Source: a virus
Lineage: Duplodnaviria > Caudoviricetes
DNA: 64,000 bases
Strand: one strand, 5' to 3'
Virus record (IMG/VR): IMGVR_UViG_3300042997_000757
Coordinates: 30,927-94,926 of that record
The first letter of the stretch is position 1. Each line of letters begins with the position of its first letter. Below, one piece after another: positions 26,399-61,807 of the stretch. The notes under the pieces are model-generated. The model did not search any database, had not been told where the DNA came from, and worked only from the letters and a program-made list of their open reading frames with translations. The translations under genes were made by a program, and so were the position numbers.

Positions 26399-28332
26399 TT
26401 AACTTTATTTCCTTTAGGATTAGCGGCAGTTGCTGCGGGGGCTGGGTCTACCAGTATTCCCCCTACGTCTTGAAATCTTAAGTTGTTATTAAAACTAATT
26501 GTTTTTGGGGTCATTTTTGCGTATTGCAAAGATTCTACAGAGTTACCAGAAGAAGTAGTTATGGTAAACCGTACTTCGTAGTTAATCTCATATTGACTAG
26601 TAGATGTTTTGTCCACATCTTGCCCTGCTTCAGGGCGACCGCTTTCAAGAGTGTATTTTAATAAAATAGTATCTTGTCCATCTTTTATGCTTTGTGGGTT
26701 AAATTCAGAGGTTTGTGATAAAGACCACACGGTGCCAACGTCAAATTTGGTAGCCCCCGGTGGCAATGATGCCGTGTATGCCGAACCACCAGCAGTGTTT
26801 CCTTTATAGGTAATTGTCCACTCACCTCTTTGGGAGATGGATTTAATAGAACCTTTTTTATATTCATTTCTTAAAACGGGATTTGCCTTTACTTGGAAAG
26901 CAACTGTTTGTGTGTAGTCACCATTATCAAATATTAGTTTTGGGCTGAGATTGTTTTCTTCTCCAGAGGCCCCCACAACATGGGAATCAAACATTTTTCT
27001 ACTGATTTCTTTTGTTGCGCTAAGTTCAGCGGCTTCAGTTACTGCTTGTTCTTCTAACGCTTCATCGGCGGCTTTCATACCTGCGGCTAGTTGCAAAGTT
27101 AAATAAGTATCTTTTCTAGCAAAACCTATGTACAAGGCTTGCATAGTTACACCAACAACGCATTGTGTTGGAACCATGTGCGGATTAAACTTATTAAATG
27201 TTACTTGTGTTGAAGTAATAAACCCTTCAACCATAAACAAAGAAGAAAATACAATACGTACTGGTAAAGAAACAAGGAAAGCAGAGTTTCCAAAGTTGCT
27301 TGTCATAGCCGTACGTGCTGCAATCTCATCAAACGTTCCGGGGTCTTGGTCTTGCGCATCTTTTTCTGAACTACTTGATGAAGTACCGCCACCGCCACCT
27401 TCAAACTTTACGGTAGGGGCTTGGGTATAACCCGAGCCTTTAGCAAGTACTTTAATTTCAGTTACTTTTCCATCAAGTACTATGGCTTCAAGTGAACCAC
27501 CTGTACCACCACCGCCACCTTCTAGGGTGACTACAGGAGCAGATGTATAACCGCTTCCCCCGCCATTGGTTCCTTGGATCTTTACTTCTTTAATTTCGTT
27601 TCCGTCTAAAGTAACGGTTGCGGTAGCCAAGGAAGTAGGTTGATCCGATACAGTAAATTTTGCAGCGTAGTCTGCACGTTTTTTTGCGTTAAGGGCAGCA
27701 GCATTTTTAATTACTTGGTTAATGAGACTGGTGTTAACACCTTGTCCAATAATTTCGTCAAAAACAATTAGGTCTGCAAGAACACCAATATCAGTAACAG
27801 CGCTGTGAGGGATAGACAAAGATTGGGATGTCTCACTTCCGGCTGTTTGCAAATTAAGGTTTGCCGGAGCAGTGGATTTAATTACACTTGATCCCGCTTT
27901 GTAAGAACTAGTAACTATTTCTGCTTCACGATTAAACAACAATTCAAAAGAAAAGTTGGCATCACCCGGAATTGCTTGGGTTAGTTGCAAGGGATCTTGG
28001 TTCATCCATTGTTGAATATCATTACGAGCAGTTACGGCACGTACAAGAGTGTCAGGATTAAACTGAAAATGTAAACGTTTTCTAGATAATGCTGAACCAC
28101 CTTTAACACCATCTGAAAGCATACGCATATAACCACGCTGTATTTTTACCGATGTACCAACAGGGGCATTGCGTAAACTTTTTCCGGGATATAGAAAGTC
28201 GGGGTTGTCCCCAGAGATAACACTGTCTGTACGCCCGGTGAAAGAACCAAAAGCAGGTCCTGCGGATGTTCCGATCCCACTACCAATATCACTAAAGTTT
28301 GCAAAGGCGTTTGTTGAATAACGTTCAGCCAT
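26395..28332 (-). CDS. Tail tube initiator-like protein with inserted GSGYT repeats
   Basis: FQFNP motif, F.LLF, GFITS..VTF.KF...MVP..C.V; follows the tape measure. Confidence 0.65.
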
Positions 28333-53846: not shown

Positions 53847-55349
53847 TCACCATTCCCCGTCAATTGTTAAGAGTTTACGTAGGGCTTCAGCGTGGTCTAT
53901 TAACTCATGGTTATGGCGTTCTTCACGCATTTGAGCAACAGCATTTTCTGCTTCTTTCCTGATGTTTAACCTATCCAAAACTCTCGTTGCAGATTCGGTT
54001 GAAAAGACATTCTGCCCTTGAGCAACATGTGCTAAATGTGGTGTCATGAATAGTTCCATATGCAAATGAGGAACGTCTGAGCGTGTTGGGGGGCGCTCTG
54101 ACCACAGGTCAAGTAATTCCTGCAACTCATGGTTTATCGGCATATCAGACATTGCTTTCCAGAAAGGAGTATCTTGTCTATCACTGTAGTAGTGGAGGCG
54201 AATCATTGTAAGAATGTTTCTCATTACTTCAGAAAACGACTTATTGAAATGCTTTTGAGATTTTGTATAGGAAGAATCGTATGCTGCCATATACGGAATT
54301 AACATTTTTATTTGCTGAATAGTTGAGCCAATACTGGTTGCCTCAAGTGGTTCAACAAAAGAAGAAGCCAAACCAACAGCAGCGCAGTTACCCTTCCATG
54401 TTTCATCTAGATACCCAGCATCAAACTTAAAAGACCTAGGGTTGGTTATCTTGTAACCAGACTTTTCTTCTGCCTCTTTTACAGCCTGCTCATCAGTTAT
54501 AAAGTCAGAGCAATATACGTATCCGTTACCCCTGCGTTCCTGCGTAGGTATTTCCCACATCCAGCCACTGTCCATAGCCATTGCCCGTGTGTATGGGCGA
54601 ATCTGCCCAGACGGGTCTGATTCAGTTGGGAATGCTATTGCGGAATCGCTAAGTAGGTATTTACTAAAAGAGTTCCATTTAGTGTTCCCTATTGCGTTCA
54701 TGAGCACACGCTTAAAACCAGAAGCATCTAGCCAAAAATCTGCTTCCACGATACTTCCCTCTTCTGTAGATACAGAGGAAATGTTTCCATTTTCAGAATT
54801 TTGAGAAACTTTAGAGACTTTACCTTCTACAAATTTGATACTACGCTTAAAGCATAGATGCGTAAAGTATTCATTTAATTTGAAAGTATCAAAGTGAAAC
54901 TGGTTTGTTGAGCGATGTAAACCCATAACTCTAATTTGGTTACGGATTAGCCCAATACTGGTTGTGTTGTTTGTAAACAGTTTTTCATTTTCTAACATAC
55001 TTGTGTATGTTGCATGAATTCCCCACCCAAAAATCTCGTCAATGCCTCCAACACTGTGGAAATACCTAGGAGTTTTTTCAGTCCAACCTTCATACCTAAT
55101 TCCATATTTGTGTGTTGCACTTGAAGCAATAATCATTTCTTCAAGGTCAATGTCACAGTTTTTCATGAACTCAGCCCAGTGTTCTGTACTACCTTCTCCA
55201 ACCCCTACGATCCCGATTTCAGTAGAAGAAATAACAGTAATTTCAGACATTGGAAATGCTTTACGGAGCAAAAGTGCGGAAATAAGACCAGCAGTGCCAG
55301 ATCCAACAATTCCAAAAGATAGTTGATGTGTAAAGTTTTTTGTAATCAT
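53847..55349 (-). CDS. Flavin-dependent (tryptophan halogenase-family) halogenase
   Basis: IVGSGTAG, GVGEGST, ATHKYGI (catalytic Lys position), DASGF, GWMWEIP (WxWxIP), R.GNGYV, FVEPLEATSI. Confidence 0.93.
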   Translation of the reverse strand: MITKNFTHQLSFGIVGSGTAGLISALLLRKAFPMSEITVISSTEIGIVGVGEGSTEHWAEFMKNCDIDLEEMIIASSATHKYGIRYEGWTEKTPRYFHSVGGIDEIFGWGIHATYTSMLENEKLFTNNTTSIGLIRNQIRVMGLHRSTNQFHFDTFKLNEYFTHLCFKRSIKFVEGKVSKVSQNSENGNISSVSTEEGSIVEADFWLDASGFKRVLMNAIGNTKWNSFSKYLLSDSAIAFPTESDPSGQIRPYTRAMAMDSGWMWEIPTQERRGNGYVYCSDFITDEQAVKEAEEKSGYKITNPRSFKFDAGYLDETWKGNCAAVGLASSFVEPLEATSIGSTIQQIKMLIPYMAAYDSSYTKSQKHFNKSFSEVMRNILTMIRLHYYSDRQDTPFWKAMSDMPINHELQELLDLWSERPPTRSDVPHLHMELFMTPHLAHVAQGQNVFSTESATRVLDRLNIRKEAENAVAQMREERHNHELIDHAEALRKLLTIDGEW

Positions 55350-55921
55350 TTAAACCACGTTACCATTGAATATTTAATACCGCTAGTGACTGGATGTGCA
55401 ATGTGTACGTATGGGAAGTTACTAGGAAACAAAATTACCGATCCAGCATCTAAAGAAATAGTTAAATCAAAATTTGGGAATTCCAGTTGACCACCTTCTT
55501 CGGCAGCACCTAAACAAGCAATAGCACTAAACACTCTTGCGGAATCCGGAGAATGGTCATAGTGAGCATGGTACTCAGCAAGACCTGAGTATTTTAGTAC
55601 CGAGATAAGTTCATGAGAACCCCCCGGAAGTTGATTTTCCTCTATGTAGTCAGATACAACATCCATAAATGGTTTATGAACGTCATTTCTATAGATGTTA
55701 GATAAAGGGTTTGCCGGGTAGGGGGGAAGAAGAGTTGTGAGCATGCACGTTAGTGATGTTCTGTGTTGCCCAATTCTCCCATTACCTACTAGCGAAGAAT
55801 TCCATGAAAGGTCTTCTCCAAAGTTATCTTCAATGTTTTCTTCTAGTTTTGAAATAAACACAGATGGGTCAAAAACTTCTCTGTATACATTTATACATAA
55901 ACCGGGTTTTTCTATAATCAT
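55346..55921 (-). CDS. 2OG-Fe(II) oxygenase, prolyl-4-hydroxylase-like
   Basis: LKY....YHAHYD, GGQLEF, G.VILFPSNFPY.H.AHPVTSG.KYS.VTW. Confidence 0.9.
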   Translation of the reverse strand: MIIEKPGLCINVYREVFDPSVFISKLEENIEDNFGEDLSWNSSLVGNGRIGQHRTSLTCMLTTLLPPYPANPLSNIYRNDVHKPFMDVVSDYIEENQLPGGSHELISVLKYSGLAEYHAHYDHSPDSARVFSAIACLGAAEEGGQLEFPNFDLTISLDAGSVILFPSNFPYVHIAHPVTSGIKYSMVTWFK

Positions 55922-56349
55922 GTTACTGTGAAATGCCCTTCGCACAAAGTTCCGTGGTGGGGAGTACTAATTGTAAACGAATAGTCACCCCTCTTGATAA
56001 ATCTATCACGATACTTAACTACGTGGTTTTCTCGCAGTTTAATTTTTGATAAGATGGTACCCTGTTCACCCATAGATGTTATGTACTTGACAGAGCACAA
56101 GGTGTCGTATGGGAAAACAATAAATTCGTTTGTGTAATCAATTGGTTGAATATAGTTAGAAACTACTGTTTTTTTATATTCCAGTTTCCTATATTCAGGT
56201 ATTGAAAGTACGCAAACTTCTGTTTCTAAAGGCTGATCTTCTACACCAATACGAATCGTCAATTTTGTTTCTTTTGCTAAATCAAGGGCTATTTTTGGTA
56301 TTTCTTCATTTTCAAGTGCTGAAAATGGAACATATACTATTCTTTTCAT
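55918..56349 (-). CDS. Hypothetical protein
   Basis: Start revised to ATG 56349 (MKRIVY); TACTAT 6 nt upstream. Confidence 0.65.
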   Translation of the reverse strand: MKRIVYVPFSALENEEIPKIALDLAKETKLTIRIGVEDQPLETEVCVLSIPEYRKLEYKKTVVSNYIQPIDYTNEFIVFPYDTLCSVKYITSMGEQGTILSKIKLRENHVVKYRDRFIKRGDYSFTISTPHHGTLCEGHFTVT

Positions 56350-56353
56350 GCTC

Positions 56354-56596
56354 TTATAGTAATACAGTAACCTTTGCTTTAACAACTTCGTAAGACTGGA
56401 CGAGTTTTCGCAAGCGGGTGACTTCCCCATCCATTCCTTGCATTGATAACGGTTCAAGCGAATCAAGGTCTGTTATCTCAAAAGTGTCAGGGTCAAAACC
56501 CATACGTAGTAAGAGGCTGTAAATTTCGTTGCTCAAAGCAACCGCAGATCCTTGAAGAGCCTGAAGTTTCTGTGCTGATGTGAGGTTGAGTTCCAT
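56354..56596 (-). CDS. Small helical protein, paralogue of 52767..53039
   Basis: AGGAG SD; MELN..SAQKL...GFDP...VV.AKV. Confidence 0.7.
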   Translation of the reverse strand: MELNLTSAQKLQALQGSAVALSNEIYSLLLRMGFDPDTFEITDLDSLEPLSMQGMDGEVTRLRKLVQSYEVVKAKVTVLL

Positions 56597-56603
56597 AATT
56601 CTC

Positions 56604-58256
56604 CTATGTATTAATTAGAATGTAAGCAGAGCCACTTGTTGCAGCCGTAGCGCCAGAGACTAGTGCTCCACCGCTTGTATCGTAAGTAATGGTACCAGAT
56701 ACAGAATCTGTGACCACTAAAATTGCCCCACCACCACCGGGACTTCCCGCTGTTCCTGAAGGGGCGGTGCGTGCAGGTGCGCCTTTGCCAAAAGTGGTTC
56801 CATTATTTATTCCTCCAGCACCCCCAGTCCAGTGCCCGTTTGGTTGTGGAGTGCTTGGGTTTGAGTGGTGACCATGGCGAGCCTTATCAAAAGAGCCAGC
56901 CGTATAATGGTGTGGTCCATGAGCGTGTCCTCCAGATATGCGCATTCCATCACCTTGTTCATTGCCGTGGTGCCCGCCCCCCAAGTCATGCCCGTTTGCG
57001 TGGGTATGTGTGTGACCAACAAGGTTTTGAGCAGCATGGATGTGCCCATCATGCCCACCAGCATGCTGATGATAAACTCGTCCTGCAAAATGACCATAAG
57101 TATCAGGATGAGAGTGTTGTGCTGCATGGTTTGTTTTAGCAGCGGTATGGATAACACTAGGCCAGTTATGAATATGTGTTAGCACTCCATGACCATCATT
57201 TGAGTGTGGGTGATGGCGACTTCCAGTGTGGTGGTAATGCCCAGAGTTGTAGGGGTGCCCGGGTGCATTTGTTGCAGGAAAGTGCCCATATTTACCATGC
57301 TGTGCTGGGGTGTGTGCACCGGGTTGGTGTGGGTGTGGGTTGACTATGTGTGCATGAAAATCAGCAAATCGTGCATAACCGTGGTGGTGGCTAGGGATGT
57401 GCGTAGGCGCAACATGGACTGGAGCGACATGATAGGCAAGGTTTGGCGCTGTTGTTCCGTTAGCGCCGGTAGACCCAGCGGTACCAGTGGTTCCTGCTGT
57501 ACCTAAGTTTCCATTATTTCCAGTAGAAATAAACTTGCCACTTCCAACAATTTGTTTTGCGACTACACAAACAACTGCCCCTCCAAACCCCGACGCTCCA
57601 GCGGCACCCGGAACACCATCTACCCATCCAGTAACATTTCCCGGAGAAGCATCTGAACCCCTACCTCCGGGGACACCAGTAGTTGTGGCATATGGGTTTG
57701 CTGCTGAGTTTACCGAACCTATAGAACCATTTGCACCTGATGCACCTGCTTTATTGGGCCATGTATCAGAGTTAGTTAAGGCAGCAATTGTTGCGCCAGC
57801 AGCGCCAGCGGCTCCAGCAGATCCTCCACCAATAACAATCATCCCTGAGGTGTGCATAAACAAACCTTTAGACATTGCATTTATGTCTTTATACAAAAAT
57901 GAAGGAAGAGCAGTTATGGAACTACCGCCCCCTTGCCCACCAGCCCTGTACGTAATAGCGCCAGTTGAATGTCCAGAGATTGTTTTCCCAGAAACACTTG
58001 ATGCAGCAGGACCAACAACTCCTCCAGAAACAGAACCAACACCTATGTAACCATTTAACGTAAGAGTATTTTTAACAAATATTCTAAAACCATTTGTGTT
58101 TAAAACAACTCCTGAGTTAACCGTCAAATTGTTGTAGTACATATCTGAAGTTATTGTTGTGTCTACTGTTACTACTCCCTCACCGTCTACCCCTGTCCCA
58201 TAGATAGCGTCATTGGCAACACGGGCAACACTTGGTTCATATCTAGATATAGCCAT
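56604..58256 (-). CDS. Gly-rich fibre/adhesin-like protein with a 200-aa His-rich insert
   Basis: Scaffold paralogous to 58260..59021; 47 His counted by hand in codons 57431-56832. Confidence 0.8.
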   Translation of the reverse strand: MAISRYEPSVARVANDAIYGTGVDGEGVVTVDTTITSDMYYNNLTVNSGVVLNTNGFRIFVKNTLTLNGYIGVGSVSGGVVGPAASSVSGKTISGHSTGAITYRAGGQGGGSSITALPSFLYKDINAMSKGLFMHTSGMIVIGGGSAGAAGAAGATIAALTNSDTWPNKAGASGANGSIGSVNSAANPYATTTGVPGGRGSDASPGNVTGWVDGVPGAAGASGFGGAVVCVVAKQIVGSGKFISTGNNGNLGTAGTTGTAGSTGANGTTAPNLAYHVAPVHVAPTHIPSHHHGYARFADFHAHIVNPHPHQPGAHTPAQHGKYGHFPATNAPGHPYNSGHYHHTGSRHHPHSNDGHGVLTHIHNWPSVIHTAAKTNHAAQHSHPDTYGHFAGRVYHQHAGGHDGHIHAAQNLVGHTHTHANGHDLGGGHHGNEQGDGMRISGGHAHGPHHYTAGSFDKARHGHHSNPSTPQPNGHWTGGAGGINNGTTFGKGAPARTAPSGTAGSPGGGGAILVVTDSVSGTITYDTSGGALVSGATAATSGSAYILINT

Positions 58257-58259
58257 GTT

Positions 58260-59021
58260 TTACACCTGTTGAATATAAATTGAGGTTCCTGAGTTCTGAC
58301 CAGTTACATCAGTTGAGATAGATGCAGGAAGGGCACTAGCAGATGATACAACTATAATGACACCGCCACCAGCAGGAGCAGTTGCAGGTGCTTTAATATA
58401 ACCAGTACCTGATGATGGTCCAGAAATGTAACGAGCGGAAACGATTACTACTCCTCCGCCTGCTTGACTATCACCACCTGCGCCACCTCGTAGAAACGTA
58501 GGACCACCAGATGCAGTAATTGAATAACCTGTTATTGCTTGTGGACCAACTCTAAAGTAAGCCGTACCACCAAGGGATGCTAACGGAGCAACTGCCGCAA
58601 ACCCAGTAGCAGAACCACCAAGAGAGTGAGAGACCGCAGTACTTGCCGCTCCACCTTGCTTGATTGAGCCATCAGTTGAATAACCAGTGTTGAACCCAAT
58701 AATTGAGTTGTTGTTTAACTTTAATATATTTTTTACAAAAACACGGTAACCGTTGGGCGCAAGACGAACACCAGCGTTGATAGTCAAATCATTAAAATAT
58801 AGGTCTGATGTCATTGAGTAAACACTTGACGACGGTGCCATGCTTAGAACGGTGGTGGTTCCGTCCAGTACGGCATCGCCATCTGCACCTGTTCCGTACA
58901 CCGAGTCAACACTTTCGTTGTAGTAAGCAACCCAGTAGGAGCCATCCCACTGCCAACTCTTAGAGCCGACAGTATAAACCTGATATTGATAAGGAGAAGC
59001 AGGGAATGTAATTGCTGGCAT
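58260..59021 (-). CDS. Gly-rich fibre/adhesin-like protein
   Basis: ITFPASP...W.WDG..W N-terminal module; YGTGADG, NGYRVFVKN, GGGVVIV motifs. Confidence 0.75.
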   Translation of the reverse strand: MPAITFPASPYQYQVYTVGSKSWQWDGSYWVAYYNESVDSVYGTGADGDAVLDGTTTVLSMAPSSSVYSMTSDLYFNDLTINAGVRLAPNGYRVFVKNILKLNNNSIIGFNTGYSTDGSIKQGGAASTAVSHSLGGSATGFAAVAPLASLGGTAYFRVGPQAITGYSITASGGPTFLRGGAGGDSQAGGGVVIVSARYISGPSSGTGYIKAPATAPAGGGVIIVVSSASALPASISTDVTGQNSGTSIYIQQV

Positions 59022-60424
59022 TACTGACTATCCCTGTACCCATAGATGCGAACAATTCCGCCAGTCATGGTTCCGCCAGTTAATGACAAAACAAAACCTG
59101 TGCTAGATAGGTCTGCTGAATCTCTTCCAGAACGCCAACTAACATAAGTATCGGTTGCGCTTTGCGCCATCACTTGAGAATCAGTAGTAAGAAACGGACT
59201 AATCAAGTCAAGTGTTATAGATGTTAAACCTTGCCCTGTCCCTATTGACCAAAGAGTTGTGTTAGAAGCAACCTCTGTTGTTATTGCTGCTGAAGAGTAA
59301 GGAATGTTCATATTGGCTGTTGAATATGTTGAACCTGTGCTGCTACCTAATTGGAGTCGTACTCCGCACAGTGTGCTGCAAGTTGTATTTTGTATAATTA
59401 TTTTATAGTTATCGTACGGCGCACTAAACGCACTTCCAACGGTCACCGACGAAACAGCAGAACCGATAGTTATTACGCCGCCCGACGCTGTGCCACCCGA
59501 TGAACAGGTTGCTGTTGTAATCAACTCCAAACCTGTTGGGTTTTGTGCAGGGCTGTTAGGAACAACCCATGCTGAGCCGTTCCACACAAGCAAACGGTTC
59601 GTATCGGTCTCGTAAGTTGTCTGACCTACCCACGGCGCAGATGGACGAGTAGAAGATGTTGCTTGGTATGGCGACATTGTGCCACCACCAAGTTCAACCC
59701 ATGCTGAGTTGTAGTAGATGTAAGTAGCACCAGTAGTTGTATCAAACCAGAGGTCTCCAGCAGATGGAGAAACTGGGGCAGTTGCAGAACTTGTTAGCGG
59801 AGCGCCTGCACCTGTTGGTCCTGTTGCACCAGTAGGACCAGTGGCACCAGTAGGACCCGTCGGGCCTACGGGTCCCTGTGTTTGTGGTCCAATCTCAATC
59901 CACTGAGAATCGTAGTAAACAAAAGTTTTACCTGTGTCGGATTCAAACCAAATCTGACCAGCAGCAGGAGAACTTGGAGCGGTGTCTGAGATTGTTGCCC
60001 CACCTGCGGCAGAGGCGTTTACCCACGCTGTACCGTTGTATTGCAATACCTGATTGGTGGCAACGCTGGTTATTGTTACGTCTGAAAGATCATCAATAGA
60101 GCCGACAGTAGATGTAGTGCCCGGAACAAACTTGGCTCCGTCAAATTTAAGTACTTGGTTGCTAGTAGCACCAGTTGTGTCTACTTCAATGCCATCAATG
60201 AAGAGAGTAGGTACTTTTAGGGTGTCGTCAGTTCTAAGGACGTTTGCTTCGTCACGGTAGAGGTTTACATCACCAACAGCAGTTCCATCGCCCCATACAA
60301 GGCGACCTCCACCTTGAACTTGAAGTCTTGCATAGGCATCTTGGTCTACGAAAATAGTCAACCCGTCAGAGCCAGCAGATGACAACTGCCTGATTGTAAT
60401 TGGGGTTATAAATTTCTGTGCCAC
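59021..60424 (-). CDS. Tail fibre protein with a collagen-like segment
   Basis: IDDLSDV, APSSP.AGQIWF, (GPT/GAT)n repeats, TSSTRP module. Confidence 0.8.
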   Translation of the reverse strand: MAQKFITPITIRQLSSAGSDGLTIFVDQDAYARLQVQGGGRLVWGDGTAVGDVNLYRDEANVLRTDDTLKVPTLFIDGIEVDTTGATSNQVLKFDGAKFVPGTTSTVGSIDDLSDVTITSVATNQVLQYNGTAWVNASAAGGATISDTAPSSPAAGQIWFESDTGKTFVYYDSQWIEIGPQTQGPVGPTGPTGATGPTGATGPTGAGAPLTSSATAPVSPSAGDLWFDTTTGATYIYYNSAWVELGGGTMSPYQATSSTRPSAPWVGQTTYETDTNRLLVWNGSAWVVPNSPAQNPTGLELITTATCSSGGTASGGVITIGSAVSSVTVGSAFSAPYDNYKIIIQNTTCSTLCGVRLQLGSSTGSTYSTANMNIPYSSAAITTEVASNTTLWSIGTGQGLTSITLDLISPFLTTDSQVMAQSATDTYVSWRSGRDSADLSSTGFVLSLTGGTMTGGIVRIYGYRDSQ

Positions 60425-60472
60425 GACCTCAATCGCTTCCTATGTTGTGACCCCTCAAGGTCTATTTAATTA

Positions 60473-61807
60473 TTAGCCTACTACAACGATTGTGTAATCG
60501 TTAGCGGAAATAGTACCGTAGAGTACTACTGAAAGTGAGTTGCTATTGGAGCGGGTTACGTCACCAATAACGGTTGCACCGGTTGATACTTCGTAAATCT
60601 GTACGTTTACATCAGTAGTATTAAAGTTGTGAGTAACTACGGTAGTAGAAACACCTGTGCTAGAAGCAGCACATCCCTGTTTTGCTGTACGAGCAAGGGA
60701 GGGAATGGATGTAGTACGACCTGTTGCTTCACCTGACGCCGAGGCGAGATTGGTGCGAGCACCTGATTCACTAGATGAACCAGTACCACCGTGCGCTACG
60801 CCAACGTCCGTGGCTTCCCAAGTACCAGCGCCAATGATTCCAAGAGTTGTAATTGTGGACTGACCAGCATATGTAGAGGCAATGTCAATGGCATTTGCAG
60901 AAACCGAGATACGGTCGGTAGTACCAACTGCATTGATTGTTGTTCCTGTTTGTGTAAGACCGTCACCAGCAGTAATTGCGCCAGCACCAGAGAACTGAAC
61001 CCAGTTCATTGCATCGGTGCCTACAGTGATTGGGCCGTTGCTTGATACTACGAAGCCAGAATCAGCGTTTAAAGTACCTTCTTCAACGAATACAAATGTT
61101 CCGCCCGATACCTCACCAGTATCCGCTGTACCGTTTGCGTCAGTTGCACGAACTGCGGCACCTGAAGCCTGAACAACATAGATACCGTTTTCGGATGCAG
61201 TGCTCTGGTTCTTAACAAGAACACGGTTGCCAGTAGCAAGCGTTACGCCGTCAATTCCATCGCCATTTTCAAGGTCGCTAGAAAGGTTGATTGCTCCTGT
61301 TGTTGCGGCACGAACCGATTGTTTAACATCAAGACCTTGACGGGCTGAGTCTACATACCCTTTTGTTGCAATATGCGCAGCCTGTGTCGGGGTAGCAACC
61401 TTGGCATGTCCGCTTCCGTCACGAATTACTAATTTGCTGGCAGTTGCATCAGCAGTTGCATCAGCAAGTTTGGTAAAGTCTGATGCAGTTAAAAGACCAG
61501 CAATTGATGATGTTGCAAGGTTTGGCGTAACCGTTGTTTGACCATTTGACTCGGTAATCGTAAGAGCGGTTGCATATGTTCCGCCGGAAACTACGCCATT
61601 ATCTTCAGCCCCACCAGTTTGGGCAGTTGACGCAAGAAGCGTTCTCCACGCAGTGCCGGACCAAACCTTGATGGTGTCTTCAGCACTGTTATAGATAAGG
61701 CGACCTTCAAAGTTGCCACTTGATGGGTCGGTAGGCAAAACCTCAAATTTGGCGTTAATCAGTTGGTTCTGATTGAGGTCAATGTTAGTTAGAAATTTCT
61801 GAGCCAT
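60473..61807 (-). CDS. Tail fibre/structural protein
   Basis: ATKGYVD, SVRAATT, RVLVKNQ...ENGIY, FV.EGT, V.HGGTG, HN.NT.DV.VQ.Y. Confidence 0.8.
   Translation of the reverse strand: MAQKFLTNIDLNQNQLINAKFEVLPTDPSSGNFEGRLIYNSAEDTIKVWSGTAWRTLLASTAQTGGAEDNGVVSGGTYATALTITESNGQTTVTPNLATSSIAGLLTASDFTKLADATADATASKLVIRDGSGHAKVATPTQAAHIATKGYVDSARQGLDVKQSVRAATTGAINLSSDLENGDGIDGVTLATGNRVLVKNQSTASENGIYVVQASGAAVRATDANGTADTGEVSGGTFVFVEEGTLNADSGFVVSSNGPITVGTDAMNWVQFSGAGAITAGDGLTQTGTTINAVGTTDRISVSANAIDIASTYAGQSTITTLGIIGAGTWEATDVGVAHGGTGSSSESGARTNLASASGEATGRTTSIPSLARTAKQGCAASSTGVSTTVVTHNFNTTDVNVQIYEVSTGATVIGDVTRSNSNSLSVVLYGTISANDYTIVVVG

What the first reader, a model, noticed from the sequence alone, without database searches (positions are those of the whole stretch)
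56832..57431. 200-residue, ~23% histidine domain inserted in a Gly-rich adhesin scaffold
Seen: 47 His in 200 codons (hand count) with many HxH/HH motifs, non-repetitive at DNA level. The adjacent paralogue 58260..59021 has the same scaffold (YGTG.DG, SD.Y.N.LT.N.GV.L..NG.R.FVKN, GG..V...A..I.G, GGG.I.V) without the insert, so the His domain is a loop insertion. Known: HxH motifs bind iron in the T4 gp37 fibre tip, and iron on fibres has been proposed to exploit host iron-uptake receptors. Inference: a high-capacity metal-binding or pH-responsive receptor-binding tip.
Basis: partly seen in the sequence, partly recalled or inferred. Interest (0 to 1): 0.8.

Follow-up and report, generated by a model that had tools for sequence, protein, structure and literature searches.

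The report
Histidine-rich insert in phage fibre protein
A virion-fibre-type protein of an uncultured freshwater phage, whose host is probably an actinobacterium, carries a real and conserved 200-residue block that is 23.5% histidine; the block sits at a site where related phages carry quite different inserts, so it is probably a metal-binding, host-facing module of a kind not yet described.

Summary
The gene at 56604..58256 (-) encodes 550 aa, and residues 276-475 hold 47 His. The DNA has no repeats, and independent lake-metagenome contigs span the gene.

The block is a family trait, not a one-off:
- About 100 protein clusters and 80 IMG/VR loci have a His-rich block (63-252 aa, roughly 22-30% His) at the same site.
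- It is under purifying selection (dN/dS about 0.1).
- His columns are kept far better than other columns.
- Some orthologues add vicinal Cys-Cys pairs.

AlphaFold puts residues 10-275 and 476-550 into one confident beta-solenoid-like scaffold. The adjacent 253-aa paralogue has the same scaffold without the insert. More distant relatives carry Tyr/Asn-rich or Cys-containing inserts at the same site. The loop-insertion reading therefore holds.

The T4 gp37 iron-needle analogy does not hold:
- There is no homology (hhalign probability 0.04%).
- HxH motifs are no commoner than the composition predicts.
- The host is probably Gram-positive (two WhiB genes, actinophage-like TerL), so outer-membrane siderophore receptors are unlikely.

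Best reading: a lineage-specific, metal-dependent, exposed variable module. Metal binding and receptor binding are both untested. The scan noted the same feature on another genome (e1-6055889).

The parts
56604..58256 (-). Whole gene: 550-aa fibre-module protein with the His-rich insert
   Evidence: ORF list. About 100 full-length homologue clusters, all named 'hypothetical protein'. No Pfam or NCBIfam family.
57432..58256 (-). N-terminal scaffold, aa 1-275: conserved YGTGxDG...NG(F/Y)R(V/I)FVKN module, Gly-rich stretches and the strand GGAVVCVVAKQIVG
   Evidence: AlphaFold pLDDT 88-98 for aa 21-270. hhalign to the paralogue family gives probability 99.7%. VIA-align best matches are single-chain beta-solenoids at Z 6-7.
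57447..57524 (-). Eight Gly-X-Y triplets (aa 245-270, GNNGNLGTAGTTGTAGSTGANGTT), two residues (TT, aa 269-270) upstream of the APNL boundary motif that opens the insert
   Evidence: Read from the translation. The number of triplets varies among homologues. The Pfam Collagen family is not reached for this protein.
56832..57431 (-). His-rich block, aa 276-475: 47 His, 28 Gly, 21 Ala, 17 Pro, 1 Glu, no Cys
   Evidence: pLDDT is about 37-72. dN/dS is 0.10 against L001. His columns are kept in 58% of distant homologues, against 20% for other columns. A profile of the block finds only this family among 1.84 billion representatives.
56604..56831 (-). C-terminal scaffold, aa 476-550 plus the stop codon: GGAGG...GGGGAILVVTDS...SGSAYILINT
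   Evidence: pLDDT 90-97. G501, G504, G508-510, G542 and N549 are invariant in 88 sequences.
58260..59021 (-). Adjacent paralogue (253 aa): same scaffold without the insert. Its stop codon lies 3 nt before the start of the His gene.
   Evidence: AlphaFold pLDDT 87.5, pTM 0.82. Its list of beta-solenoid matches is the same as for the His protein. It is the only other copy in the 94.9-kb genome.
59021..61807 (-). Two upstream fibre-type genes (467 aa with GPT/GAT collagen-like triplets; 444 aa), context for a virion-fibre module
   Evidence: PHROG hits to tail fiber, head decoration and virion structural protein families. The 444-aa protein matches virion and minor-tail-region proteins of Gordonia, Mycobacterium and Rhodococcus phages.
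56354..56596 (-). 80-aa protein starting 8 nt after the His gene; syntenic in most loci where the flank is long enough; candidate assembly chaperone (inference)
   Evidence: No family hit.
53847..55945 (-). Co-conserved 2OG-Fe(II) oxygenase (199 aa) and flavin-dependent Trp-halogenase-family enzyme (500 aa) downstream
   Evidence: Pfam PF13640 (E 4.8e-10) and PF04820 (E 3.7e-103). Synteny across the 80 loci. The halogenase is present in 5 of 5 His-type records and absent from 5 of 5 records with a non-His insert.

Best explanation
The His-rich block is a genuine, lineage-specific protein domain. It occupies the variable-insert site of a beta-solenoid-like scaffold protein encoded in the virion-fibre module of an uncultured freshwater myovirus that probably infects Actinobacteria. 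What is shown: the block leaves and re-enters the scaffold between its last rungs, and it is bounded by the motifs AP(N/D)L..H and H(Y/W)xGGAGG. Its length and sequence vary among orthologues, but it stays 22-30% His. It is under purifying selection, and its conserved positions are mostly His. What is inferred: the block has almost no hydrophobic residues, so it probably folds around, or is cross-linked by, several divalent metal ions (Zn, Fe, Ni or Cu). The ligands would be the conserved His and Asp (motifs HSDxHxH, HHPHxNDGxHG, GGHDGHxHA, HTHT), helped in some orthologues by vicinal Cys pairs. The folded block would form the exposed surface of the fibre protein. Because relatives swap in unrelated inserts at the same site, this surface is most likely the part that contacts the host envelope.
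For: The His count and its outlier status are confirmed. Family trait: 118 hits, about 100 with at least 15 His in a 200-aa window at the same place. In the 80 IMG/VR loci every complete orthologue is His-rich. Scaffold plus insert: aa 21-270 and 476-550 have pLDDT 88-98, while the block has 37-72. The paralogue has the same scaffold. Variable site: His blocks of 63-252 aa, and Tyr/Asn-rich (P0084, P0092, P0097) or Cys-containing (P0081) inserts between the same motifs. Constraint: dN/dS 0.10 and 0.34. His identity is 58% against 20% for other residues in distant homologues, where 26% would be expected from composition. The 'nearly invariant' columns of alignment A2 are almost all His. Hints of metal binding: Cys occurs in even numbers, mostly as CC pairs next to His, and the block has 1 Glu, 3 Leu, 1 Met and 1 Trp in 200 aa. 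Virion context: PHROG and actinophage matches of the neighbouring genes. The block is not an assembly artefact.
Against: No metal binding has been measured or modelled. AlphaFold gives no confident structure for the block, so an intrinsically disordered region is not excluded. Alignment programs tend to align His with His, which inflates the His-conservation figure. No virion proteomics exists for this phage group, so presence in the particle rests on gene context only; the neighbouring 444-aa protein's family is variously annotated as head decoration or tail fibre. The oligomeric state is unknown. The fold matches of the scaffold are only Z 6-7, which is the level of a common arrangement.
Confidence: 0.5

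Rival explanations
1. A gp37-like trimeric iron needle. Three chains interdigitate, and HxH pairs from each chain coordinate Fe2+ octahedrally along the threefold axis, as in the T4 long-tail-fibre tip. The fibre-bound iron might be mistaken by the host for a siderophore cargo (the 'Ferrojan horse' idea).
For: There are 13 HxH motifs, of which about five are conserved across the family. The block leaves and re-enters the scaffold at neighbouring points, which fits an out-and-back topology. Gly-X-Y triplets flank the insert and could trimerise. Iron bound by HxH in fibres is established for T4 gp37 and has been proposed for marine phages (PMC11705849).
Against: The profile of the block against the gp37 tip gives hhalign probability 0.04%. 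There is no PDB sequence relative and no structural match to gp37. HxH is not enriched over shuffled sequence (z = 0.9 for the window protein, 1.1 for 21 orthologues). In gp37 all 14 His of the tip lie in 7 HxH motifs. The scaffold is predicted confidently as a single chain. The host is probably a Gram-positive actinobacterium from lakes, which lacks TonB-dependent outer-membrane receptors (established knowledge).
Confidence: 0.12
2. A metal-free, largely disordered polyhistidine region that acts as a pH- or charge-dependent 'sticky' tether to anionic cell-wall polymers (teichoic or teichuronic acids, polyphosphate) or to the cell surface in general.
For: pLDDT is low over most of the block. 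The composition is of low complexity (His, Gly, Ala, Pro, Asn, Thr). Length is variable and some orthologues have internal repeats. Sister proteins carry Tyr/Asn-rich low-complexity inserts at the same site.
Against: Position-specific motifs are conserved over 35-40% overall identity. dN/dS is about 0.1, no looser than the scaffold. Conserved Asp, Trp, Pro and Cys-Cys accompany the His. AlphaFold places beta-strands at 377-412 with pLDDT 56-72. At the usual lake pH (above 7) histidine is mostly uncharged (established chemistry).
Confidence: 0.18
3. The block is mainly a substrate or docking region for the co-conserved halogenase and 2OG-Fe(II) oxygenase, so that the mature fibre carries halogenated or hydroxylated residues. 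This does not exclude metal binding.
For: The gene order His gene, 80 aa, 182 aa, 2OG oxygenase, halogenase is kept in the 80 loci. The halogenase is present in 5 of 5 His-type records and absent from 5 of 5 records with non-His inserts. Trp is the second most conserved residue in the block.
Against: The contrast rests on two clades, that is, on one phylogenetic event. The records without the halogenase are only 50-85% complete. Conserved synteny among related phages is expected by descent alone. No halogenase is known that acts on virion proteins (from my own knowledge, not tested here).
Confidence: 0.12
4. An artefact or non-functional expansion: a misassembly, or a drifting low-complexity filler.
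For: None beyond the unusual composition.
Against: Independent contigs from other studies span the gene. About 100 clusters from many assemblies share the architecture. The block is under purifying selection.
Confidence: 0.02

Closest known systems
T4 gp37 long-tail-fibre tip (needle domain, seven Fe2+ held by HxH motifs; Bartual et al. 2010, as cited in PMC11705849)
   Same: A phage fibre-type protein in which histidines replace a hydrophobic core and probably hold metal ions. An excursion that goes out and comes back.
   Different: No sequence or profile similarity. His density is 23.5% here against 6.5% in gp37. In gp37 every His of the tip sits in an HxH motif, whereas here HxH occurs at the chance level. 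The scaffold here is predicted as a single-chain beta-solenoid, not an interwoven trimer.
Gp38 adhesins of T2/S16-type Straboviridae (Gly-rich motifs alternating with hypervariable segments; PMC12032242, PDB 6f45)
   Same: The logic is the same: a conserved Gly-rich scaffold presents variable segments that set specificity. The gene sits at the end of a fibre gene series.
   Different: No sequence similarity. The structural match is weak (Z 4.9, rmsd 8.2 A), and gp38 is absent from the paralogue's top 50 matches. Here there is one very large insert rather than several short loops.
Single-chain right-handed beta-helix or beta-solenoid adhesins (autotransporter passengers such as pertactin and IcsA, TPS domains such as EtpA and HMW1, tapirins, bactofilin)
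   Same: These are the best structural matches of both the His protein scaffold and the paralogue (Z 6-7, rmsd 2-4 A over 80-120 residues).
   Different: Z is below 8, so only a common arrangement is shown. There is no sequence relation. Those proteins carry no His-rich inserts.
Collagen-like surface proteins with a globular head (Scl/Lcl type; giant-virus collagen-like proteins)
   Same: Gly-X-Y triplets adjoin the scaffold. The best BFVD matches are Orpheovirus and Pandoravirus collagen-like proteins (E 7e-9). The relative P0111 has a Pfam Collagen repeat in front of the same scaffold. Some family members carry an N-terminal Lcl_C domain.
   Different: The window protein has only 8 triplets and does not reach the Pfam Collagen threshold. 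No His-rich module is known in those proteins.
His-rich metal-storage or metallochaperone tails (Hpn, HypB, UreE, SlyD) and His-rich metal-cross-linked structural proteins (Nereis jaw protein, mussel preCol flanks); named from my own knowledge, not tested here
   Same: His content is very high, together with Gly and Ala. In those proteins the function depends on binding several Zn, Ni or Cu ions.
   Different: Those are cellular or animal proteins and none is a virion component. Their tails are poorly conserved, whereas this block has position-specific motifs.

Membership tests
T4 gp37-type HxH iron needle | Sequence or profile homology to the gp37 C-terminal needle/head region | tested here: not met
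   hhalign of block profile A2 against T4 gp37 residues 811-1026: probability 0.04%, with only 4 columns (HTHT) aligned. No PDB relative at E <= 1 apart from Gly-rich noise.
T4 gp37-type HxH iron needle | Histidines organised as HxH pairs (one pair per chain per metal) | tested here: not met
   13 HxH observed against 10.8 +/- 2.5 in shuffles (z 0.9). For 21 non-redundant orthologues z is 1.1. In gp37 all 14 His of the tip lie in 7 HxH motifs.
T4 gp37-type HxH iron needle | Interwoven homotrimer with axial octahedral His6 metal sites | not testable with these tools
   Only monomer AlphaFold2 was available. The block is modelled at pLDDT 37-72.
Gp38-type polyglycine-II adhesin | Structural match to the PGII sandwich of S16 gp38 (6f45) | tested here: inconclusive
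   Z 4.9, rmsd 8.2 A, 135 residues aligned for the His protein. Not among the 50 rows shown for the paralogue.
Gp38-type polyglycine-II adhesin | Variable segments flanked by conserved Gly-rich motifs | tested here: met
   The insert is bounded by Gly-X-Y triplets plus AP(N/D)L upstream and GGAGG downstream. Its length is 63-252 aa and its content ranges from His-rich to Tyr/Asn-rich.
Gp38-type polyglycine-II adhesin | Sequence membership (a Pfam or PHROG gp38 family) | tested here: not met
   No Pfam family at E <= 1 apart from noise. The only PHROG hit is phrog_13336, of unknown function, at E 3e-4.
Single-chain beta-solenoid adhesin fold | Structural match clearly above background | tested here: inconclusive
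   Best Z 7.1 (2iou_H), 6.8 (6ria_A) and 6.7 (3ml3_A) for the His protein. Best Z 6.6, 6.3 and 6.2 for the paralogue. The tool notes that Z below 8 may reflect only a common arrangement. Foldseek finds nothing at E <= 0.001.
Collagen triple-helix repeat protein (PF01391) | Pfam Collagen match above the gathering score | tested here: not met
   No hit for the window protein at E <= 1. Eight Gly-X-Y triplets are visible at aa 245-270.
Virion structural (fibre) protein | Detected in purified particles, or homologous to a protein that is | tested here: inconclusive
   The protein itself and its paralogue have no homologue in 50,697 deposited phage records. Only the neighbouring genes match virion, minor-tail or fibre proteins.

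The most novel reading that the evidence does not exclude
Freshwater actinophages display a previously unknown metal-cluster domain on a virion fibre. It would be a polyhistidine domain holding roughly 8-15 ions per chain, sometimes supplemented by Cys-Cys pairs. The domain would be the interchangeable host-recognition cassette of a beta-solenoid scaffold, and it would be matured by a halogenase and a 2OG oxygenase that always accompany it. That would be the first virion protein known to be enzymatically halogenated or hydroxylated.
Probability: 0.12. Interest if true: 0.85.

Novelty: new variant of a known kind. Interest (0 to 1): 0.6.

Why it matters
Phages of the abundant freshwater Actinobacteria are almost entirely uncultured, and how they recognise their hosts is unknown. 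This family offers a clear, testable candidate: a conserved scaffold with one swap-in site, which in most members holds a domain that is one quarter histidine.

If the block binds metals, it would be the densest natural metal-binding module known on a virus particle. It would then bear on two questions: how much trace metal viruses sequester in lakes, and whether proteins can fold around metals without a hydrophobic core. It would also be a natural affinity handle for pulling such virions out of environmental samples.

The strict co-occurrence with a flavin-dependent halogenase raises the separate possibility of enzymatic modification of a virion protein.

Tried and rejected
- **Deposited phage genomes.** tblastn of the His protein and of the paralogue, and megablast of 14 kb of the window, against 50,697 phage records gave no match. 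BLAST's low-complexity filter may contribute to this.
- **Family libraries.** Pfam, NCBIfam and PHROGs give no informative family for either protein.
- **Solved structures by sequence.** A profile search of PDB sequences found only Gly-rich noise.
- **Solved structures by fold.** Foldseek against the PDB gave nothing at E <= 0.001 for either model.
- **Profile of the His block against 1.84 billion representatives.** There were 9 hits, all from the same family, so there is no fused or free-standing form elsewhere.
- **Expression.** No RNA holder was listed among the sequencing runs, so there is no evidence either way.
- **Literature.** Six full-text searches found no paper that describes this family.
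- **Readings rejected.** Misassembly; a one-off insertion unique to this genome; HxH enrichment as evidence for anything.

Full report
**1. Observation**

ORF 56604..58256 on the minus strand encodes 550 aa. The whole protein has 49 His, 100 Gly and 67 Ala. The other 70 minus-strand ORFs of at least 100 aa in the window have a median His content of 1.7% and a maximum of 5.9%. Tandem Repeats Finder reports only two trivial arrays in the region.

The many start codons on the opposite strand simply reflect His codons: CAT and CAC read as ATG and GTG in reverse. The plus-strand ORFs listed are therefore not evidence of genes.

The 13 HxH and 7 HH pairs are no more than the composition predicts. 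Shuffled sequences give 10.8 +/- 2.5.

**2. The block is real DNA**

Twenty public runs from 17 studies, labelled lake water or freshwater metagenomes, hold all or part of the gene. A 6,354-nt contig of run X8, from a different study, covers 56300..58295 continuously. Contigs of run X5 match at 100%.

**3. The virus**

The window is bases 30927-94926 of a 94,926-bp virus record that CheckV rates 100% complete. It encodes:
- a tail sheath, baseplate wedge, portal, large terminase, PolA-type DNA polymerase and DnaB-like helicase, so it is a contractile-tailed phage;
- two WhiB-family genes, which are the marker used to recognise actinophages (PMC10914622).

Its terminase is closest to those of Streptomyces phages, 44% identical to BRock. 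The 444-aa fibre-type protein matches mainly Mycobacterium, Gordonia, Arthrobacter and Rhodococcus phage proteins. In Gordonia phage Yvonnetastic the homologue is annotated as a virion protein and lies beside minor tail proteins. The host is therefore most likely a freshwater actinobacterium. This is an inference.

**4. A family trait**

A search of 5.8 billion proteins found 118 relatives. About 100 of them have 15-67 His in a 200-aa window at the same relative position. None carries a functional name.

IMG/VR gave 337 confirmed loci, of which 80 were kept. In these the following gene order is conserved, down to 33-40% identity and in genomes of 86-159 kb:
- 131-aa protein
- 444-aa fibre protein
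- 467-aa collagen-like fibre protein
- 253-aa paralogue
- His protein
- 80-aa protein
- 182-aa protein
- 2OG-Fe(II) oxygenase
- Trp-halogenase-family enzyme
- 275-aa protein

Every complete orthologue in these loci is His-rich, with 17-67 His.

**5. Scaffold and insert**

AlphaFold2 with 88 aligned sequences gives pLDDT 88-98 for residues 21-270 and 90-97 for 476-550. Residues 280-470 score about 37-72, with weak strands at 377-412.

The paralogue family aligns to residues 1-236 with probability 99.7%. Both proteins have two 'GGGVV.V' strands. They are adjacent in the paralogue and separated by about 280 residues in the His protein.

The paralogue folds confidently by itself (pLDDT 87.5, pTM 0.82). 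Both models retrieve the same set of single-chain beta-solenoids at Z 6-7: bactofilin 6ria, pertactin in 2iou_H, IcsA 3ml3, EtpA 8cpk, HMW1 2odl and tapirin 4wa0. Such Z values indicate only a common arrangement. Foldseek finds no PDB match.

In BFVD the best matches are collagen-like proteins of giant viruses and uncharacterised proteins of uncultured phages. These two genes are the only copies of the scaffold in the genome.

**6. The site is a cassette site**

Across orthologues the block runs from 63 to 252 aa. It always lies between AP(N/D/S)(L/R).. and (H/Y)(Y/W)xGG(A/T)GG and always holds about 22-30% His.

The shorter versions, and some long ones, contain Cys in even numbers, mostly as vicinal CC pairs next to His. 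Some versions are internally repetitive.

Four more distant relatives keep the scaffold and both boundary motifs but carry other inserts. P0084, P0092 and P0097 have Tyr/Asn/Thr-rich inserts, and P0081 has a Cys-containing segment of about 85 aa. P0104, P0111 and the paralogue have no insert.

In the IMG/VR loci of the Tyr/Asn type the long and short paralogues are again adjacent, in reversed order, and the 2OG oxygenase is kept.

**7. Constraint**

In an alignment of 30 blocks the nearly invariant columns are almost all His, plus a few Gly and Pro. Recognisable motifs are HSDxHxH, H(W/Y)HHxGxxHHPHxNDGxHGG, KPNGH, GGHDGHxHA, HTHT and HHH.

His positions of the window protein are kept in 58% of homologues below 50% identity, against 20% for other positions. 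The His content of those sequences is 26%. Alignment bias towards His-His matches inflates this figure to some degree.

dN/dS in the block is 0.10 against L001 and 0.34 against L002, no looser than in the scaffold.

A profile of the block, searched against 1.84 billion representative proteins, finds 9 hits, all from this family.

**8. Comparison with gp37**

The T4 gp37 tip (residues 811-1026, read from NC_000866) has 14 His in 216 aa, all in seven HxH motifs. This matches the seven iron ions reported for it (as cited in PMC11705849). Profile comparison with the block gives probability 0.04%.

His spacing in the family shows depletion at i+3 (z -4.5) and excess at i+5 to i+7, and no HxH excess.

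The block is therefore not a gp37-type needle by any feature that could be tested here. The outer-membrane siderophore-receptor idea also fits poorly with a Gram-positive host.

**9. Mechanism**

Shown:
- a conserved, selected, His-dominated domain inserted at the variable site of a fibre-module scaffold.

Inferred:
- With 1 Glu, 3 Leu, 1 Met and 1 Trp in 200 residues, the block cannot build an ordinary hydrophobic core.
- Conserved His and Asp, with Cys-Cys in some members, are typical ligands for Zn, Fe, Ni or Cu.
- A metal-dependent fold would explain why AlphaFold fails on it.
- Its position at a cassette site suggests that it is the exposed, specificity-determining surface.

Not known:
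- whether metals are bound, and which ones;
- the oligomeric state;
- whether the protein is in the virion;
- what it contacts on the host.

**10. Novelty**

No paper in the searchable library describes this family. No curated family covers either the scaffold or the block. No deposited phage genome has a homologue.

The scan's first-stage readers flagged the same kind of block on another genome (e1-6055889) and flagged the downstream enzyme cassette on this one (e1-5844861).

I class it as a new variant of a known kind: a phage fibre protein with a variable, probably host-facing module, here built from an undescribed polyhistidine domain.

Noticed in passing
window 53847-55349 (halogenase) and 55346-55945 (2OG oxygenase); records behind L001, L014, L029, L037, L080 versus L087, L089, L090, L093, L095: The Trp-halogenase family (PF04820) is present in 5 of 5 records whose long scaffold protein has a His-type insert. 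It is absent from 5 of 5 records whose orthologue has a Tyr/Asn-rich insert, although the 2OG oxygenase is kept in both groups. This is only one phylogenetic contrast, and the records without the halogenase are 50-85% complete.
   Followed up: partly
window 56832-57431 versus L002:6067-6720: Against the closest relative (95% aa identity), synonymous divergence is 0.17 in the His block but 0.019 in the N-terminal scaffold. This suggests that the block was exchanged by recombination between close strains.
   Followed up: no
L051, L059, L065, L067, L069, L074, L077, L079, L080 (orthologous inserts): Short or divergent His blocks carry Cys in even numbers (2, 4 or 6), in most of them as vicinal CC pairs directly after His or Ala-Pro. 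Several are internally repetitive, for example SNHHFHQ x3 and NHSA(V/T)IH(A/E)PHT x4.
   Followed up: partly
window 58260-59021 (paralogue, N-terminus) and 59021-60424 (467-aa fibre): The low-confidence N-terminus of the paralogue (SKSWQWDGSYWVAYY) resembles the repeated W..D..G....Y....W units of the upstream collagen-like fibre protein. It may be a docking or strand-complementation motif.
   Followed up: no
window 56354-56596 (80 aa) and 55918-56466 (182 aa): The two small genes directly downstream of the His gene overlap each other. They are syntenic in most orthologous loci but have no family hit. By position, the 80-aa protein is a candidate fibre-assembly chaperone.
   Followed up: no
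G000:C1:25389-25562 (+) and 26811-27020 (-), outside the window: Two WhiB-family genes lie in the part of the genome upstream of the window. Multiple whiB copies have been noted as a feature of some freshwater actinophage clades (PMC10914622).
   Followed up: partly
P0035, P0046, P0071, P0073-P0075, P0080, P0085, P0094: Some family members (620-730 aa) carry an extra N-terminal Lcl_C/DUF1566-type domain (PF07603) in front of the same scaffold and His block.
   Followed up: no
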